DNA of 64,000 nucleotides from Octopus vulgaris. Its lineage: Eukaryota. The stretch is taken from contig OX597816.1 of the NCBI GenBank assembly GCA_951406725.2, forward strand, positions 36,580,001 through 36,644,000, in the 5' to 3' direction. Position numbers and translations under genes: made by a program. Below, in pieces: positions 7,901-58,130 of this stretch; position 1 is the stretch's first letter, and every line of letters starts with the position of its first letter. The notes under the pieces are model-generated. The model made no database searches, was not told the origin of the DNA, and saw only the letters and a program-made list of their open reading frames with translations.

Positions 7901-10399
7901 TATAGTTATCATGTATAAAAGGCTTGTGCTTTCATAAAACTAAGGAAGATGGCCTTCAAAGCCAGATGTCGCTTTGAAATCGGGTACTGGTTTGTCTGAG
8001 TTTCTGTCTCTATAGAAAGCTTATTTTATATTTAAAGCTATAGAGATCGATTCAAAACATCACTAAATTGAGTACAGAATTTTGAATGCAAGTTTCAAGT
8101 TAAAGCCTCACATTAAACCAGGAATCTTGAATAATAATATTTCATTCTTTTTTTCAAATAAATACTTTCCTGAAATTATTTTATTTTCCTTTTATCATTC
8201 TTGTAGACCTACCTTCTTTGTGACCAGTTATGTGTGCCTTACTCTTTTCAGTGACTGTAGCTTCAATGATTTCTAGAATGTTCTCTGGCCACAAAGTTAT
8301 TTCTATGCATTAAACCCAGAGTGCGTACTATCTTTACATTTCGTATATATTGAATTAATCTTTATAATTTTTGTAGTGTTAGCTGCTCTAATATCCAATA
8401 TTTACTTTTTTTATAATTTATTATTCTAAACCGCATTATTATTACATTATCGCCTTTAATTTATTCATGTGGAAGGATTGAATCTTAAATAATTTGGAGT
8501 TTATCGGTATTAGTTTTACGACTAACGTGTCAATTTCTTTAAGACTTGTTTGTCATAGGTTAATATAAGATATATCCGTTGCTTTTTTAATGAAACTATT
8601 ATGTTGCTTTATTTGCATTCTTCTATGCTACAACCTCTTTCGCCGTATGTTAATTCAAATAATATTATGTTAGAGTATATATTATAATTCAAGTGGTATA
8701 TATTTAATGATGTGTTTTGTTGTATTTCTGTCAAAACGTAAGTCATTTACGTTTCACATGCAATGTATCGGAGCTGCTTTCAGGAAAATTTTTAACACAA
8801 TTTATATCTAATTTCAGATATACCTTCTAAATAACGAGTTTTCCCTTACGCCTGATATTTTATTAACATCAGTGGCGGTGATGCATGTAACATGCATCTC
8901 TATGCTTTGTTGAAGGAATTTCTGTGACACAAATGATGACCCGCAAACAGCTTTACCCTCTGAATAAATTCTCTAGTAATTTACCTTTTATTGAACCTGA
9001 TGCAAGAAATTACATCTTTCGATATCTGAAATATTTTATTTCGCTGTAGGCCTCTTAATTTGTTGGTGATGCAGGCACAGTTTAACATATAATTTGACCG
9101 TCCTTGTGTATCAACACTTTCATTAGTTGCAATTTCACATGGTTGGTGAAGCGAATAATAAGTCATGTAAGATCGCTAAAACGTCTGTCATAATTAAGTT
9201 CCATTTGATACATTCCGACATCATATATTTGACGACAAAGTGGGATTTACCTTGTACTAGAGTTGTTTAAAGATTTGCGAAGCGAAATATAATGTAACCG
9301 AAAATATAGCCAGCGTATTTGTGATACAATAACAATTCTACTGCCAAAACATTATTTGGAAAATTGACATTCGAAATGCAAGTATCTCAATCACATGTGA
9401 ATTTTGTCATTTCCAATTATCATCGACACAAATTATATTATAATTTTATCAGGTATATGTTACTATTCTGAAATTACACAATACTAATACAATTATTAAA
9501 GTCTGAGTCGTGCAGTTCAACATACCAGAAGTGCACACACATAAATTTGATAACAGAGCAGAAAATCGATAAATAAACGTATATTTACATTCTTTATTAC
9601 ATATATACATTCAATTTATAAATAGAAATGTCGCCCCAACAAAATTATCTAACCATTTCATTGATATGATTATATAAGTGAAGCTAATAAGCAAAGAGTA
9701 AACAAATTAATTTAATATAACTTTAATAGAGTGCCACTAAACACCAAGTAAATGTAGGAAAAACTCAATTTCCATAAAGAATAAATATAGTGACTGTTAC
9801 TTAATATTATGAAAACAAACGTAAATACCACCAGAATGAACTTTGCTTTATTCCTTTCGTAATTGATATAATATAATGCGAGCAAGTACCGGGGTCGATA
9901 AAATATATCAGCAGGTATTTGTGTTCATCGAATCGATTCCTCTACTCTTTAAACATTGTGGAACCTCTGTATACCCTAAATTAAATGCTGGGAAAACAAC
10001 AAAAATTTCTTCTACAATTATGAAATACAATTCATATTAAATAACAAATCCCGAAACCCATTCATAAAAGGAGCCACAACACATGTCCCCCATAAACACC
10101 TCCCCAAAACACACCTCAAACGCACATACTATTCAACCCCCCTTCACACAGGACACAACCTCCCCAACCCTACAAAAAGCCCTTTCCTCCCCGAAAAAAT
10201 TCAAACAAAATCCACCTCAAAACTTGGATCTTTAATCATTCTAACCCTCCTCCCCACCGACAAAATGCATCAAGAACCCCCATACACTAGGAATTACCCC
10301 CTTCTCAATGCTCCCCACTCTCATACTAATATCAAAAAAGGTATCCTACCCACACCTATACATAGAATCCCATACAGCCCTCCCAACCAACACCCACAA

Positions 10400-10828
10400 T
10401 CCTAGAAATCTGGACACCTTTTCCACATCTCCTTAATGGAAAACTGGAAAAGATACCTAGATGATCGTTTCATCATATGGAAAGAATCTCATGAAAATCT
10501 TCTGGAATTCAAAACCACGCTTAACAACATACATCCCAACATTCAATTCACTATGGGAGTCAGCAAACATCATCTCCCTATTCTTGATCTCCTAATTATA
10601 AAAGCACCTCACAACCAAATCAAAACCAACATCTACCACATACCTACAAACTCACAATACTCACAAACTCACAAACTTCCTTTCATGCCACCGAAAACAC
10701 ACCAAGATAAATATCCACTTCAACTTAGTTAAAAGGATTTGCATCATTGTCTCGGACCCAACCATTCGAGAAGTAAGCCTTCAAGACCTCAAAAAAACAA
10801 TATTACAAGGCCAATATCCCTACACAAT
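10400..10828 (+). mobile_element. Penelope-like element RT C-terminal fragment (pseudogenised)
   Basis: WKRYLDDRFIIW..FKTTLNNIHPNIQFTM..LPILDLLI..TNIYHIPTNSQ, then frameshifted SCH.KHTKINIHFNL..RICIIVSD; homologous to 57044-58130. Confidence 0.85.
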
Positions 10829-11462
10829 ATCCCTAGGAAGCATCGAACGCCTCCTGATAGCTTTGACACGGTGTCCCTAGATGCAGTTCCGGCGGCCGGG
10901 GGTGTTTGTCTCCCCTTCGTATATGTATATAAGGACACATGGAAAAAATGTGTCAAAGCTATCAGGAGGCGTTCGATGCTTCCTAGAGCTATACAGCGGT
11001 GGTGTACCCCCTACTGTCACTTTCTTGTTAGATTGACAGTATGCAACCATTCTATCGCCCCACCACCGTACATGTCTCTACGAGAGATTTAGAAATTCAA
11101 TACTTCTTATTTTGATAATCAGTGAATAAACTTCACTGAATATAGGTATATACAATTACGAAGTCGAGGCAAATATCACCAGCTGACCGGTGTCTGCTAC
11201 TCTAGGCCGATGAAAGACAACGATCCTGAAACACAGTGTCCCTAGATGCTGTTCCGGCGGCCGGGGGTGTTTGTCTCCCCTTCGTAGGGGAAAATGTGTC
11301 AAAGCTATCAGGAGGCGTTCGATGTTTCCTAGGGCTATACAGCGGTGGTGTACCCCCTACTGTCACGTTCTTGTTAGATTGACAGTATACAACCATTCTA
11401 TCGCCCCACCACCGTACATGTCTCTACGAGAGATTTAGAAATTCAATATTTCTTATATATAT
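10829..11462 (+). mobile_element. Retrozyme-like cassette A: about 1.6 tandem copies of a 345-365 nt monomer with a short inverted 5' piece
   Basis: gtgtccctagatgc at 10871 recurs at 11236; 10829-10869 is the reverse complement of an internal segment; 3' end runs into (TA)n; contains an HHR. Confidence 0.8.
11201..11246 (+). ncRNA. Type I hammerhead ribozyme, variant core CCGAUGA
   Basis: tctagg-CCGATGA-aagacaacgatcct-GAAA-cacagtg-TC-cctaga; stem I perfect 6 bp and extends to a rod over 11157-11286; GUC cleavage triplet; stem II imperfect. Confidence 0.75.
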
Positions 11463-29768: not shown

Positions 29769-29814
29769 GACACCTGATGAAAGCTGCAGATTACATCAGC
29801 CGAAACGTTGTGTC
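29769..29814 (+). ncRNA. Minimal type I hammerhead (PLE pseudo-LTR type)
   Basis: gacac-CTGATGA-aagctgcagattacatcagcc-GAAA-cg-TT-gtgtc; stem I perfect 5 bp; palindromic AACGTT stem III. Confidence 0.8.
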
Positions 29815-45045: not shown

Positions 45046-45179
45046 TATTTATTTATATATAGAGGGCATTATTATACATACATGCCACACGCTAAGAGGG
45101 ACAACATTAGTCATTTCTACCAAAAAGTTTACTAATCCCACCGAATGCAATTTTTCAAAGTAAGACATTTAAAAATATG

Positions 45180-45226
45180 GACTTGTATCACCTGTGATTT
45201 CATACCTCTGTATTCATCAGCAAGCC
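45180..45226 (-). ncRNA. Canonical type I hammerhead ribozyme
   Basis: Minus strand ggcttg-CTGATGA-atac agag gtat-GAAA-tcac ag gtga-TA-caagtc; all three stems pair; AUA cleavage site. Confidence 0.9.
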
Positions 45227-45639
45227 TGGACGTATCATAAATAAACGACCCTACCTCGTCTAAGCCGAGCAGCTAACTGATCAACATCAACGAAGCACAT
45301 GGGTGAGTTTACATATATTACATCCGGTAAATGGCAGACTTTTACGAATTGCATTTCGGGAAAGGAAAAGTTTTTTCGGAATAAAAATTTAGCAATTAAG
45401 GACAACTTCTTAATAAGGAAAACTTAACAAGAAATTATCGGGTAGATAGCGTGAAAGACCTCATAAGAGAAAAAAATTTCGAAAATAATTCTTTCTTATT
45501 GAACATATTAATTTATATATAGAGGGCATTATTATACATACATGCCACACGCTAAGAGGGACAAAATTAGTCATTTCTACCAAAAGTTTTACTAATCCCA
45601 CCGAATGCAATTTTTCAAAGTAAGACATTTAAAAATATG

Positions 45640-45686
45640 GACTTGTATCACCTGTGATTTCATACCTCTGTATTCATCAGCAAGCC
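45640..45686 (-). ncRNA. Canonical type I hammerhead ribozyme (second copy)
   Basis: Identical to 45180-45226, 460 nt upstream on the minus strand. Confidence 0.9.
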
Positions 45687-47910
45687 TGGACGTATCATAA
45701 ATAAACGACCCTGCCTCGTCTATATATATATATATATAACCTCTGATATATTTGCGTAGTTTATATAGCTTATAAATGGTTCCTAATCTCTCGCATAAAA
45801 TTCTGTATAATACAATATTATATTTTATATTTATAGTTACACATATTTTATATTTATAGTTACACATTTTAAATATTTGTGTATCTATATTTGACATCTT
45901 TATACATTTGTATATCTTTTTATATACTTTCCAAGTGTTTGTAAGTTATAATTTTTTTATAAGGTCTTTTTATATAATTTACTGGATATGGGAATCCATA
46001 TTCTAGCATATTTTTAATAATGCATTATTCATTAAATGCTTACATGCCCAAATATATATATATCCGCATGAACATTAAGTGCTAGATTTATCCTATCAAC
46101 GTTAATGCATCATTCAACCTGCTGCTTGGATTTACTTGAGATTATAAGTAAGCATTTACACCTTCACGGAAATACGAATAAACACCATACCCTCCGAATT
46201 AACATGAACTATGAACCTTATACTTGTATCTACTTTCAATTTTCTGTCTAGAACATCCCTGCACACCCCTGTTGTCTCTGACGGAATACTCAGTGCATGG
46301 AGATGTCGATAAACATATTGAAACATATCGCCGTAATGTGTTAACCACCATGTTTGAGCAAGGAAATCATTATTAAATTCCAAGTTAGCTCAAACAATCG
46401 GGTGGATTTGAGCTGATATTTTTTGTATCATATTTTTTTCACATGTTTACTATGTTGAGTCGGTTCTAATGGTCAGCGTTGATAGCGACGGATGATCGAG
46501 CATCAGTATTATCATCAGTGTATCCGTTTTGACCGTCTACGTAATTACAAGGAAAAGGAGTACCGACGTAGATTCATTAAATATATTTCAATCATATTCA
46601 CATATATACGCACAGTATATATGTGAATATACACGGAAGCGAATAATATACGCACTAGTATGTTTACTTACAAGCAAGTATAAACTCTCATACAAATATG
46701 TATGTATATATTTATGTAGGCATCTGTAGGAACCATGACAGAAAAGAATTTAACTATCTTTATTAGAAGACGTAAAAATGTAAAATGCATTCCGCTGAAT
46801 CTACTGATGACAACATTTCGAAATTAAAGTCTGATTCCAGTGATACAATGCTATCTCATTATTTCATCTAACTTCAATTACAGCGCAGATATACGTTTCC
46901 TGCTCTGTTACAGGTAATAGATTTTCTGATATATTGTATCTCATTTCGAATGTAAAATACATATTAAACAGGGCTTGTTATTGATTCTGTCATAATGTAT
47001 TACATATCGGTATCTCGCTAGGAGTTAACAATGCGCAAATATTCTCTGGCGTCAGTTATGGAATATCCATGAACATGCTCGGTGACATAGACGACGTAAT
47101 TATTCAATGCTTTGCTCTCACTCTCACGTTTTGCTGAACTGAATAGACACTAGGTTTAACATAGACATAACTGAAGATATCCTTGAAATCAAGATTCATT
47201 TCCTTGTCCTGTTGTGTTACTGCCAGTTTCAATTTAATTCCCAATACAGAATCCTTAGCTTGGACAAACCTGATTCAAAAAGCACAGTATAATTTTTAGA
47301 AATCAATGTCGAATAGAAAACTGGCTCCCGTCGGGAAAATACCCGGCAATATTTGCTTGCAGCCTCTTTATCTTTTTGAGCATACATACAGCACGGATAC
47401 ACGTTGCGTTTAATCCTTTTCAAATCCATACAATTAGAACAGATCAGATTAATGAAACATGGATTAGCGTTATCGACTATACCCTAAAGAAATATCTTTT
47501 ATGAGAAGGAGACTGTGACGATTAAAGTGATCAGATGAATGCGCAGGTTTAGTAAAAATTATTTAAAATTTTCAAAGATCATAATGAAGATAGAATCATT
47601 TTGTCCTTTCAAAATCTAATTTTATTCTATTTTAAAAGAAAAGTGGGACGGAGCAATAGAGTAGATTAGGATTTCTCAGGGTTTTATAACAAGTAAAACA
47701 GAGGCCGTTTCATCATAACCAATATCTAATAAGACCATGCAAATGGGATTGAAAACAATTAAATAAAATAACTAAGTCGTGTTTAATAGTAAGTTTTACG
47801 GTGATTGAACATGTTAATCACGTTGAATTTCGACAGATAGTGAACGTAATCACATTTTACGATTTCAGTCATAAAACGTAACCTTAATCTCACGATAGGT
47901 TAGTGAGGTG

Positions 47911-55404: not shown

Positions 55405-55889
55405 CCACTATATATATATACATGCTTATACATGAAATATTAGGAAAAAAAACACATTGTTAACAAAATGAACAACTAAATTGCACCATCTTGAAAATTG
55501 TATATCATAGGGAAGTTAAAATTAAAGTGACGATTAAAAAGTAAAGATGAAGTAAATTACAAAAATGATATAATGTATATAACAGGTAATATATATATAC
55601 ACACACACATATATATATATACATATACACACATATACTAAATGTTCTACTATATTAAATTGTAAATCGAAAGATGTGTCCTTCAATGTCACTATATATC
55701 TATACATGCTTATGCATGAAATATTAGAAAATAAACACCTTTTATCGATTCACAATGAACAGTCAAATTACACCATCTTGAAAATTGCATATCATAGGAA
55801 GGTTAAAATTAAAATGATAATTGGCAAGTAAATATTAAGTAAATTACAAAAATAATATAATGTATATAACAGGTAATATATATATATAT

Positions 55890-55927
<38 letters not shown>
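55405..55927. repeat. Diverged ~285-bp tandem duplication in the PLE 3' tail; the second unit is completed at 56933-57028
   Basis: cactatata..catgcttat..aacaggtaatatata at 55407 and 55690; atactaaatgttctac..ccttcaatgt at 55635 and 56974. Confidence 0.8.
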
Positions 55928-55930
<3 letters not shown>

Positions 55931-56099
55931 ACATAAGGGACTAAAGCCATCTGAATATGGCTAGGGACAGGGCAGGGTGGTGGGGGTGTTACTGTTGCAT
56001 TTAGCCCCAGGCGAACATCGACGTCACCAGAAAGGCTCGACACCGTCACGGTGCCCTAAACCTGCAAAGGGAGGTAATTCCCCGATGAAGCGGAAACCA

Positions 56100-56145
56100 C
56101 ACACGGACCATGGTTTCAAGGTGTATTGCCTATCATCGGCGTGTG
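56100..56145 (-). ncRNA. Type I hammerhead, CCGAUGA variant
   Basis: cacacg-CCGATGA-taggcaatacacctt-GAAA-ccatgg-TC-cgtgtg; extended stem I spans 56061-56184. Confidence 0.8.
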
Positions 56146-56459
56146 GTAGGCCTCCGCTTCCTCGACGAATTCTCACTCTGCAGGATTTTCTTATATAGAT
56201 TTTCAAGCAAAATACATTTGCTGATTTCGAAAATCTGTTCGAAAGCAATAATAATTCTCTAAAAGGGATATAGACAGTAACTGCTCGATAACATAAGGGA
56301 CTAAAGCCATCTGAATATGGCTAGGGACAGGGCAGGGTGGTGGGGGTGTTACTGTTGCATTTAGCCCCAGGCGAACATCGACGTCACCAGAAAGGCTCGA
56401 CACCGTCACGGTGCCCTAAACCTGCAAAGGGAGGTAATTCCCCGATGAAGCGGAAACCA

Positions 56460-56505
56460 CACACGGACCATGGTTTCAAGGTGTATTGCCTATCATCGGC
56501 GTGTG
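56460..56505 (-). ncRNA. Type I hammerhead, CCGAUGA variant (copy 2)
   Basis: Identical core, 360 nt from copy 1. Confidence 0.8.
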
Positions 56506-56670
56506 GTAGGCCTCCGCTTCCTCGACTAATTCTCACTCTGCAGGATTTTCTTATATAGATTTTCAAGCAAAATACATTTGCTGTTTCGAAATCAGCAAAT
56601 GTATTTTGCTTGAAAATCTATATAAGAAAATCCTGCAGAGTGAGAATTCGTCGAGGAAGCGGAGGCCTAC

Positions 56671-56716
56671 CACACGCCGATGATAGGCAATACACCTTGA
56701 AACCATGGTCCGTGTG
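56671..56716 (+). ncRNA. Type I hammerhead, CCGAUGA variant (inverted copy)
   Basis: Same motif read directly on the + strand; rod spans 56632-56755. Confidence 0.8.
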
Positions 56717-56931
56717 TGGTTTCCGCTTCATCGGGGAATTACCTCCCTTTGCAGGTTTAGGGCACCGTGACGGTGTCGAGCCTTTCTGGTGACGTCGATG
56801 TTCGCCTGGGGCTAAATGCAACAGTAACACCCCCACCACCCTGCCCTGTCCCTAGCCATATTCAGATGGCTTTAGTCCCTTATGTTATCGAGCAGTTACT
56901 GTCTATATCCCTTTTAGAGAAATTATTATTG

Positions 56932-56976
<45 letters not shown>

Positions 56977-57043
56977 CTAAATGTTCTACTATATTATATT
57001 GTAAATCGAAAGATTTGTCCTTCAATGTATGATGAGTAAAATT

Positions 57044-58130
57044 TCAGCCATTTAATTTGGGGAAGAACTTAGCTATGAAACATTTTTCCATATTCCTCCC
57101 GAAAGAAGTGTCGTTCTTCGGACATTTGTAGAAGGGAAAGATCTTAAATTTTTCTTTCTCCACACGTAGCTAGGTGTGTACTTAGTGGTATTTTGCGTAG
57201 TTCTTCCTGCCGAATATGTTGTCGGTGAATCCTGGCTCGCTGGCACAAAGAATTAGCAGTTTCACCTACGTAATTCTCCTTGTATGTGGGGCAGGTTATG
57301 CAGTATATAACGTTCTGCGTCTTGCAGTTCATACCTGCATTTACTTTGAATACGTAACCACTTTTAAATCTCATCTCTCTGTTTCCCTCTATGTATTTGT
57401 AGGTGGGGTTGCTGCAGATCCCACATCTACCATCTCCGCACTCTTTTGCCAAGAATTCCGTTTTAGTTTCTGAAGAGAATTTCGCTCTTGTTAGATGTTT
57501 CTTTAGGTTTTTGTCCTGTCGTCTACTGTTTTTTATGCTATATTTGTTTAATATGTTTTTCATTTTGGGGCTTTGTAAGGCTATTGGTAGGTTTGAATGT
57601 ATGGTTTGGAAGATGTTGGTAACTCCAGGGTTGTGCGTGTTTATAAAAGGGATAATGTTTTCTTTGTTTTTTGTTTTGGGTGTCCTGAGTTGTGCGATGT
57701 CTAGTTTTAATGCTCTTGTGATTCCATTTTCTATTAGTTTAAGGGAGTATTTTTGCTCTAGGAGCAAGTTTTTGAGTTCATCTAGTCTTATTAGTCGTGT
57801 TTGTGAATCAGTTACTATGCTACATATTCGTCTTGCCATACTATATGGGATGTTTCTTTTTTTGTGGGATGGGTGGCAGGAATGGAAATTTAAATATTGT
57901 TGTGCGTCAGTTTTTTTTTTTGTAGTGGATGTCTGTTGTGACGATGGAGTTGTGTATTTTGATGTTGATGTCTAGGAAGGGAAGTTCGTTGTGGCTGGTA
58001 TCTATTGTGACGTTGATAGATGGGTGCATCGTTTTGAGGATGTTGTGGAATGTTCGTAGATCTTCTTCTGATCTGTTTCAAAAGATGAGGCAGTCATCGA
58101 GGTAGCGTTTCCACTTTTTCTTGATGTCTC
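57044..58130 (-). pseudogene. PLE reverse transcriptase C-terminus plus GIY-YIG endonuclease (frameshifted)
   Basis: KWKRYLDDCLIF, LPFLDI, YLNFHSCHPSHKKRNIPYSMARRICSIV, Cys linker CGDGRCGIC, NVIYCITC..YVGET...R..H; ends FPFYK..EKCFIAKFFPKLNG*; ORF-track entry 57144-57839 is the intact middle. Confidence 0.92.

What the first reader, a model, noticed from the sequence alone, without database searches (positions are those of the whole stretch)
56671..56716. Shared non-canonical CCGAUGA (U4C) hammerhead core with palindromic stem III
Seen: all four complete HHRs of cassettes A and C have C instead of the usually conserved U4, a weak base of stem II, and a stem III that is a near-loopless palindrome (ccatgg; cac-a-gtg). 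Established: minimal PLE-type HHRs with palindromic stem III work poorly as monomers and better as dimers. Inference: U4C is a heritable family trait rather than decay, since it is fixed in two divergent families, and cleavage may be restricted to tandem transcripts. Strict CUGANGA pattern searches would miss these motifs.
Basis: partly seen in the sequence, partly recalled or inferred. Interest (0 to 1): 0.7.

Follow-up and report, generated by a model that had tools for sequence, protein, structure and literature searches.

The report
Retrozyme hammerheads that swap core letters
This is one of about 800 near-identical copies of a young 360-base jumping repeat whose hammerhead RNA has C where the textbook core has U; related repeats in this genome changed that letter independently several times, so it is likely a tolerated, still self-cutting variant rather than decay, although cutting is untested.

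Summary
The motif is real: four type I hammerheads with C4 in the window. Family A is a young 360-bp non-LTR retrozyme: 800 exact C4 copies, none with another base, in head-to-head arrays in (TA)n with a Penelope-type 44-nt tail. Family C has C4 in 38 of 40 copies. C4 is heritable but not inherited from one ancestor: A and C belong to one retrozyme superfamily in which position 4 changed at least 6 times. A loose genome pattern gives 2,555 C4, 4,835 U4 and 405 purine hits. A third core (U3-A8, 979 hits) is almost never combined with C4. Family A arose from inside a U3-A8 clade: C4, a restored C3-G8 pair and a palindrome-preserving stem III swap lie on one short branch, which points to selection on catalysis and dimerisation. 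Corrections: these are full-size retrozyme hammerheads, not minimal PLE ones; palindromes and weak stem II bases also occur in U4 families; cac-a-gtg is private to the window copy. U4C is known from a viroid, and CYGANGA descriptors exist. Cleavage is not shown. The scan noted a CCGAUGA retrozyme elsewhere in this genome before.

The parts
56671..56716 (+). Type I hammerhead, C4 variant (family A); C4 at 56678, predicted cut 56710/56711
   Evidence: 800 exact genomic copies of its 5' part
56632..56755 (+). Predicted long rod (extended helix I with a 3-nt bulge opposite one U) carrying the hammerhead at its tip
   Evidence: folding; same layout predicted in families C, D, G and S
56584..56933 (+). 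Plus arm of the cassette A insertion (unit positions 234 to 222)
   Evidence: locus L024
56889..56933 (+). 44-nt 'tail' (unit positions 179-222) present on one arm only; Penelope-type signature
   Evidence: 78 of 95 arm ends at unit position 178 or 222; tail concept
55928..56591 (-). Minus arm of cassette A: 1.8 tandem 360-bp units (positions 234 to 178)
56460..56505 (-). Second C4 hammerhead of cassette A
56100..56145 (-). Third C4 hammerhead of cassette A
55876..55930 (.). (TA)n target, left side
56933..56976 (.). (TA)n target, right side
11201..11246 (+). C4 hammerhead of cassette C (older family C; two private changes in this copy)
10823..11455 (+). Cassette C: partial tandem of the 363-bp family C unit with a short 5' inversion (ends approximate)

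Best explanation
The motif is the hammerhead of a young 360-bp tandem repeat (a non-LTR retrozyme) in which C4 is fixed at family level, and it likely still self-cleaves, predicted to be slow as a monomer and faster as a double hammerhead. Shown: fixation of C4, array architecture, repeated U4/C4 switching, near-absence of amplified purine-4 or C4+U3-A8 cores, and a compensatory 3-8 change on the branch to family A. Inferred: tandem arrays are transcribed; neighbouring units pair through the 8-bp stem III palindrome and cut out 360-nt monomers whose ends are held by the long helix I rod; a host ligase circularises them; a Penelope-like RT-endonuclease nicks (TA)n, starts at two internal sites 44 nt apart and copies round the template, giving head-to-head multi-unit arrays. 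C4 would be a mildly weakening, tolerated core state that is buffered by helix I-loop II contacts and dimerisation; a core would tolerate C4 or U3-A8 but not both.
For: Fixation: 800 copies with C, 0 with A/G/T at position 4; family C 38 C, 1 T, 1 deleted of 40. Pyrimidine only: same loose pattern gives C4 2,555 (control 165), U4 4,835 (457), purine-4 405 (1,179), G5A 589 (565); the first 100 listed purine-4 and G5A hits are scattered with no tandem arrays, whereas the C4 and U4 lists are full of arrays. Recurrence: with position 4 masked, 31 rows need 8 changes, 6 forced by starred branches; one C4 clade rejected, p-AU 6e-74. Exclusivity: U3-A8 979 hits (control 1), all 100 listed have U4; a looser C4+A8 pattern gives 36 hits (control 12), 10 of them U3-C4-A8, all single. 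Selection on the A branch: with positions 3, 4, 8 masked A nests in U3-A8 rows under starred nodes, U3-A8 monophyly rejected p-AU 3e-7; of 22 differences in 360 nt from the 5 nearest U3-A8 copies, 3 are positions 3, 4, 8 and 2 convert one stem III palindrome into another (about 0.004 for hitting both 3 and 8 at random, post hoc). The 3-8 pair is a catalytic-core pair. Palindrome kept in 8 different sequences among 18 of 24 rows; the double-hammerhead fold costs less than the active monomer in 9 of 12 families, A 5.1 vs 8.3 kcal/mol. Mobilisation: arm 3' ends at 178 or 222 in 78 of 95 (A), 18 of 22 (A2), 16 of 22 (U3-A8 sister), matching the PLE tail and two RT start sites. Circular unit folds at z -5.1. 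A natural U4C viroid variant is weak in vitro but sufficient in vivo (Perreault 2011 citing Ambros and Flores 1998).
Against: No cleavage was observed. 5' ends of arms are not enriched at the cut site overall: 4 of 193 within 5 nt, 2.7 expected, p 0.28; the 4 are all family A at unit position 2, with 5 genome-wide. In an in vitro PLE system hammerhead mutants did not affect insertion. The three core changes on the A branch could have come in together by a template switch from another C4 family (family D has the same helix I and core); no C3-U4 intermediate exists in the A lineage (0 hits) and the U3-G8 intermediate was not counted. Nearest-neighbour folding gives the active fold of A a low probability as monomer and as dimer, and the dimer is worse than the monomer in 3 of 12 families; it ignores tertiary contacts. 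Tree rows were hand-picked from first-listed hits, mostly contig C1; one U4 row (L032) is a single mutated copy, and several other rows are single older copies. No driver PLE was identified.
Confidence: 0.68

Rival explanations
1. C4 is favoured, not just tolerated: a slower ribozyme keeps the 360-nt circle from re-opening while still releasing monomers from tandem transcripts, so lineages repeatedly pick one weakening core state (C4 or U3-A8).
For: Repeated origins; near exclusivity with U3-A8; A swapped U3-A8 for C4 on one branch; G-C at 10.1-11.1 in 0 of 11 C4 rows and 3 of 13 U4 rows; Cervera 2020 notes that metazoan circles need some block other than self-pairing. In silico, C4 lowers the active fraction in A (0.3 and 1.8 kcal/mol, monomer and dimer) and C2 (2.0, 1.2).
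Against: Young arrays with the fully canonical core and G-C base also amplify (L132, L133); no folding effect of position 4 in D, E, G; U-to-C is a simple transition and drift among master elements explains recurrence.
Confidence: 0.17
2. The C4 hammerhead is nearly dead and hitch-hikes: the Penelope enzyme copies uncleaved read-through transcripts of tandem arrays, so cleavage is dispensable.
For: Hammerhead mutants did not change PLE insertion in vitro and no reads ended at the cut site in that study; Naiads spread without canonical hammerheads; no overall excess of 5' ends at the cut.
Against: Purine-4 and G5A cores appear only as scattered hits near or below control level; compensatory 3-8 and stem III changes on the branch that gained C4; helix I stays paired with different sequences in C4 families.
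Confidence: 0.11
3. C4 is corrected to U in the RNA (C-to-U editing), so the working ribozyme is canonical.
For: None found; it would reconcile a C4 gene with a U4 requirement.
Against: An edited template would be copied back as T, yet 0 of 800 young copies have it; no change at 56678 is listed in four contig sets (which may be DNA); where 56678 differs it goes with 56677, and in two of three runs with 56682, i.e. the U3-A8 sister family.
Confidence: 0.02
4. C4 is decay or an assembly/CpG artefact of individual copies.
For: C4 creates a CpG, so some old U4 copies may be deaminated C4 copies (e.g. L032).
Against: Fixed in 800 near-identical copies on many contigs and in independent public contig sets; CpG decay runs C to T, the wrong direction.
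Confidence: 0.02

Closest known systems
Metazoan non-LTR retrozymes (Cervera and de la Pena 2020, PMC7229834; passages and sections 15, 17 read): mussel 350-390-bp repeats, axolotl Rtz_353 with HHR_Amex2
   Same: Tandem 350-363-bp non-coding units with one type I hammerhead; structured unit; Amex2 also has a U.U at the base of helix II and a 2-bp helix III with tetraloop, and cuts better as a dimer.
   Different: C4 and U3-A8 cores fixed in whole families were not mentioned in the parts read (supplementary figures of the mussel and coral families not seen). Head-to-head arrays with a fixed 44-nt tail in (TA)n were not mentioned there either. Circles and cleavage are shown there, not here.
Natural U4C hammerhead of a viroid (Ambros and Flores 1998; not held, known only through Perreault et al. 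2011, PMC3088659, passages and section 8 read)
   Same: Same core substitution; reported there as much weaker in vitro but sufficient in vivo, thought to be offset by tertiary contacts.
   Different: There a rare variant; here about a third of pattern hits in an animal genome, fixed in several families by independent changes.
Minimal PLE hammerheads (Cervera and de la Pena 2014, PMC4209133; parts 1-2 of 4 read), including the U3-A8 variant of Schistosoma Cercyon elements (about 1,300 hits)
   Same: Type I, palindromic helix III region, dimer model, family-level core variant (U3-A8).
   Different: Those have long helix II, short helix I and little or no helix III and lie in pLTRs; the motifs here match that paper's 'canonical' sizes (helix I 6 bp, helix II about 4 bp, 1-2 bp helix III) and lie in ORF-less repeats. 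U4C is not reported in the parts read.
Penelope-like elements with tail and 5' inversion (Craig et al. 2021, PMC8557442; Frangieh et al. 2024, PMC11167929; passages read)
   Same: Two fixed 3' ends about 40 nt apart, inverted 5'-truncated arm, microsatellite targets.
   Different: No ORF; multi-unit arrays of a 360-bp unit; no sequence match to the one young PLE examined.
CYGANGA hammerhead descriptors (PMC13481778; passages read)
   Same: Y at position 4 is already allowed and C/T degeneracy reported in viral-metagenome hammerheads.
   Different: No animal retroelements, no family-level or phylogenetic analysis in the passages read.

Membership tests
Type I hammerhead ribozyme | Three-helix junction with core C3, G5, A6, G8, A9, G12, A13, A14, A15.1-U16.1, H17 | tested here: met
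   helices keep pairing with different sequences across families
Type I hammerhead ribozyme | U at position 4 | tested here: not met
   C in 800 of 800; a natural active U4C exception is reported
Type I hammerhead ribozyme | G10.1-C11.1 pair | tested here: not met
   U.U in A, A-U in C; U.U is reported in active natural hammerheads
Type I hammerhead ribozyme | Helix I bulge / loop II tertiary contact | tested here: inconclusive
   A 3-nt bulge starting with U opposite a single U after 6 bp is kept in 23 of 24 rows and loop II is A-rich; that this is the Schistosoma-type contact is recalled, not tested
Type I hammerhead ribozyme | Rfam hammerhead model match | tested here: not met
   No hammerhead family hit in the whole window or 56600-56800; the U4 hammerheads of the window were missed too, so this is not due to C4
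Type I hammerhead ribozyme | Site-specific self-cleavage | not testable with these tools
   Only contigs available; genomic 5'-end test inconclusive
Minimal PLE hammerhead (min-HHR) | Long helix II, short helix I, absent or vestigial helix III, located in the pLTR of an ORF-bearing PLE | tested here: not met
   no ORF in arrays and no match to the PLE examined
Non-LTR retrozyme | Non-coding 150-450-bp tandem unit with one type I hammerhead per unit, dispersed arrays | tested here: met
   360-bp unit, arrays up to 14 units per arm on many contigs
Non-LTR retrozyme | Expression as linear and circular monomers | tested here: inconclusive
   390-nt contigs that close on themselves in runs guessed to be RNA fit a circle or a tandem array equally; none is on record as RNA
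PLE-mobilised element | 30-45-nt tail on one arm, inverted 5'-truncated arm, microsatellite target | tested here: met
PLE-mobilised element | Identified autonomous partner sharing the priming region | tested here: inconclusive
   One young RT-GIY-YIG family checked (10 loci), no similarity to unit A; other PLE families not examined

The most novel reading that the evidence does not exclude
Retrozyme lineages in this genome are selected to carry one, and only one, weakening change in the hammerhead core (C4 or U3-A8), trading one for the other, as a built-in brake that lets tandem precursors cut as dimers while monomer circles stay closed. The superfamily would then be a natural, phylogenetically ordered map of epistasis in a ribozyme active site, and an answer to how animal retrozyme circles avoid re-cleaving themselves.
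Probability: 0.2. Interest if true: 0.72.

Novelty: new variant of a known kind. Interest (0 to 1): 0.5.

Why it matters
U4 is treated as invariant in many searches of animal genomes, yet here C4 hits are about a third of C3-G8 pattern hits and a further 979 have U3-A8, so retrozyme censuses based on CUGANGA can miss whole young families. The superfamily offers matched natural pairs (same unit, different core) with a known order of changes, which makes core epistasis and the monomer-versus-dimer question directly testable in vitro. The fixed 44-nt tail in ORF-less arrays is independent genomic support for mobilisation of animal retrozymes by Penelope-like enzymes. The substitution itself, the element class and the dimer model are all known, which caps the surprise.

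Tried and rejected
1) 'Anti-core' switch: the stretch just downstream of the cut is complementary to the core, but folding shows it pairs with upstream sequence as a long extension of helix I; an antisense hammerhead has no helix I. Rejected. 2) Genomic footprint of cleavage: 4 of 95 family A arms start one base after the cut (5 of 11 pattern hits genome-wide are true ends), but 0 of 98 further arms in four other sets do; pooled 4 of 193, p 0.28. Inconclusive. No untemplated bases at the junction in 245 junctions. 3) Expression: no RNA holder listed; only contigs could be laid, which show no ends or strand. 4) My interim note that divergent contigs in X5 keep C4 is withdrawn: those contigs start within a few bases of the core and match the U3-A8 sister seen; a search for a C3-G8 form with that stem III found nothing. 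5) One apparent U4 copy in subfamily A2 (L117) is an inversion junction at position 4. 6) Rfam: no hammerhead hit. 7) Driver: the neighbouring young PLE shares no sequence with unit A and shows no hammerhead by my scan; Pfam did not recognise the window's ORF fragment but did the full ORF. 8) A general folding role for C4: inconsistent across 12 families (crashed). 9) Literature: searches found U4C with hammerhead only in Perreault 2011, and no paper on C4 families in animal retrozymes or on octopus hammerheads. Lunse et al. 2017, Ambros and Flores 1998 and Przybilski and Hammann 2007 were not held, and no supplements were opened; these may already show C4 motifs. 10) The census of core intermediates in the A lineage is incomplete (U3 with G8 and the lineage total were not counted).

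Full report
OBSERVATION. The window lies in a 2.8-Gb animal assembly; that it is octopus-like is inferred from its size and repeats and from earlier scan notes. A two-strand scan found eight type I hammerhead-like motifs, four with C at position 4: three in cassette A (56671-56716+, 56460-56505-, 56100-56145-) and one in cassette C (11201-11246+). Two with U4 lie in a separate repeat at 45180-45686, and two are weak (25047, 29769). Rfam found no hammerhead of either kind.

FAMILY A IS A YOUNG RETROZYME. The unit is 360 bp. A DNA search scored 40 of 767 candidates and gave 212 matches, the listed ones 99-100% identical. An exact 34-letter pattern over the core has 800 hits with C4 and none with A, G or T; a subfamily A2 with C7 is 96-97% identical and also C4. 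In 54 loci, 78 of 95 arm 3' ends fall at unit position 178 or 222, mostly next to (TA)n, usually one of each in a head-to-head pair of arms, with scattered 5' ends and up to 14 units per arm. This matches the tail, inversion and microsatellite bias described for Penelope-like elements (Craig 2021, passages) and the two internal RT start sites shown in vitro (Frangieh 2024, passages). The unit has no ORF-sized coding role that I could find and fits non-LTR retrozymes (Cervera 2020, passages and sections 15, 17; Li et al. 2026 preprint, part 1 of 5 and passages). As a circle it folds at z -5.1 against 40 shuffles, with the hammerhead at the tip of a long rod.

FAMILY C IS OLDER. Copies are 82-97% identical to the window copy (40 of 2,279 candidates scored). 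Among 40 distinct copies from 30 loci, position 4 is C in 38, T in 1, deleted in 1; stem III is the perfect palindrome in 17, a G-inserted form in 12, and the window's cac-a-gtg in 1. The weak stem II of the window copy is also private.

C4 IS COMMON AND AROSE REPEATEDLY. One loose pattern gave 2,555 hits with C4 (reversed control 165), 4,835 with U4 (457), 405 with a purine (1,179) and 589 with G5A (565) (only the first 100 of each were listed). The C4 list holds at least six distinct stem II/III families. A and C align over about 240 nt with 20 C4 and 20 U4 loci fetched from these lists; 31 rows hand-picked from them and earlier loci (non-alignable families left out) gave a tree, position 4 masked, that needs 8 changes, 6 forced by starred branches, and rejects one C4 clade (p-AU 6e-74); the label is hardly more clustered than shuffled labels (37 of 500). 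One change is a single mutated copy, so at least five concern families or older single rows. Palindromic stem III (7 of 11 C4 rows, 11 of 13 U4 rows) and a mismatch at the base of stem II (7 of 11, 6 of 13) belong to the superfamily, not to C4.

A THIRD CORE AND THE ORIGIN OF A. Public contigs showed a close relative differing at positions 3, 4 and 8. A pattern for U3-A8 cores gave 979 hits (control 1); all 100 listed have U4. A looser pattern for C4 with A8 gave 36 hits (control 12), 10 with U3, all single copies, and one tandem pair among the C3 hits. With positions 3, 4, 8 masked, A and A2 nest inside U3-A8 rows under successive starred nodes; the U4 family S nests there too; U3-A8 monophyly is rejected (p-AU 3e-7; 25 rows). 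Against the 5 nearest U3-A8 copies, A and A2 differ at 22 of 360 positions, including 3, 4, 8 and the two central stem III bases, which turn one palindrome into another. The 3-8 pair is a core pair whose covariation is known in nature (Perreault 2011 section 8; Cervera 2014 parts 1-2). A compensated change there, on the branch that gained C4, is the best evidence that the C4 ribozyme is under selection for catalysis. A template switch importing the short core from another C4 family is an alternative; no C3-U4 intermediate was found and the U3-G8 intermediate was not counted.

MECHANISM. Shown: sequence, fixation, architecture, phylogeny. Inferred: transcription of arrays, cleavage, ligation, copying by a PLE. 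Perreault 2011 states that U4 contacts the A6-N7 phosphate and that a natural U4C viroid variant is much weaker in vitro yet sufficient in vivo, likely thanks to tertiary contacts (the original paper was not held). Tertiary-stabilised hammerheads tolerate other core changes too (PMC3884650, passages). In nearest-neighbour folding the double hammerhead costs less than the active monomer in 9 of 12 families (A 5.1 vs 8.3 kcal/mol; C 0.6 vs 3.8) and more in 3; swapping position 4 has no consistent effect. The axolotl Amex2 motif has the same U.U base and 2-bp stem III and cuts 22% in an hour as monomer, far more as dimer, so 'dimer-preferred' is more likely than 'dimer-only'.

AGAINST. No cleavage or circle was seen: no run on record as RNA holds the unit, self-closing 390-nt contigs fit arrays as well as circles, and arm 5' ends are not enriched at the cut overall (4 of 193, p 0.28). 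Hammerhead activity was dispensable for PLE insertion in vitro. The driver PLE is unknown.

NOVELTY. Retrozymes, the dimer model, U4C and U3-A8 are each known, and CYGANGA descriptors with C/T degeneracy are in print (PMC13481778, passages). Searches found no report of C4 fixed in animal retroelement families, of repeated switching, or of exclusivity with U3-A8; Lunse 2017 and all supplements were not seen and could bear on this. The scan had noted a 359-nt CCGAUGA retrozyme elsewhere in this genome and a phage U4C hammerhead. Verdict: real, heritable, convergent core variant in a known class of element; new variant of a known kind; interest 0.5.

Noticed in passing
window 57144-57971 (-); full copies L164-L173, e.g. 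L169:1275-5185: 5'-truncated copy of a young RT + GIY-YIG Penelope-like family: many copies with the same top score, 775-aa frame, preceded by an overlapping 557-aa frame with no Pfam match; no hammerhead found by my scan. A two-frame, hammerhead-less C-terminal-EN PLE is unusual by the passages of Craig 2021 read.
   Followed up: partly
G000-wide; L175-L198: 979 hits of U3-A8 hammerhead cores in the same retrozyme superfamily, several subfamilies, some in tandem arrays.
   Followed up: yes
window 45060-45720 (-): Two-unit 460-bp repeat between (TA)n runs with U4 hammerheads, 4-bp stem III and A17; no BLAST similarity to the A/C superfamily.
   Followed up: no
L113, L120, L124, L135; L032, L085, L137, L168, L171; L096, L122: Three other hammerhead-like families outside the superfamily also occur with both C4 and U4; may be pLTR hammerheads of autonomous PLEs.
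   Followed up: no
contig C1 hits: About five similar family G-like motifs carry G5A together with C4; either CpG decay or an amplified inactive subfamily.
   Followed up: no
family A unit position 234-237 (window 56584-56591): 5' truncation/inversion hot spot next to a small hairpin: 4 of 95 arms start at 234 and 3 more at 235-237.
   Followed up: partly
window 55500-55930 and 56976-57030: Cassette A sits in a (TA)n inside an older degenerate tandem of the neighbouring PLE's 3' region.
   Followed up: partly
window 9980-10830 (+): Broken RT-like frame directly upstream of cassette C, resembling the PLE RT by eye; probably an older PLE fragment.
   Followed up: no
window 1531-49855, about 13 copies: Dispersed 150-280-bp SINE-like family, some in tandem.
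   Followed up: no
window 29769-29814 (+): Single minimal hammerhead-like motif with U4, long stem II and 2-nt stem III beside a (TAG)n run.
   Followed up: no
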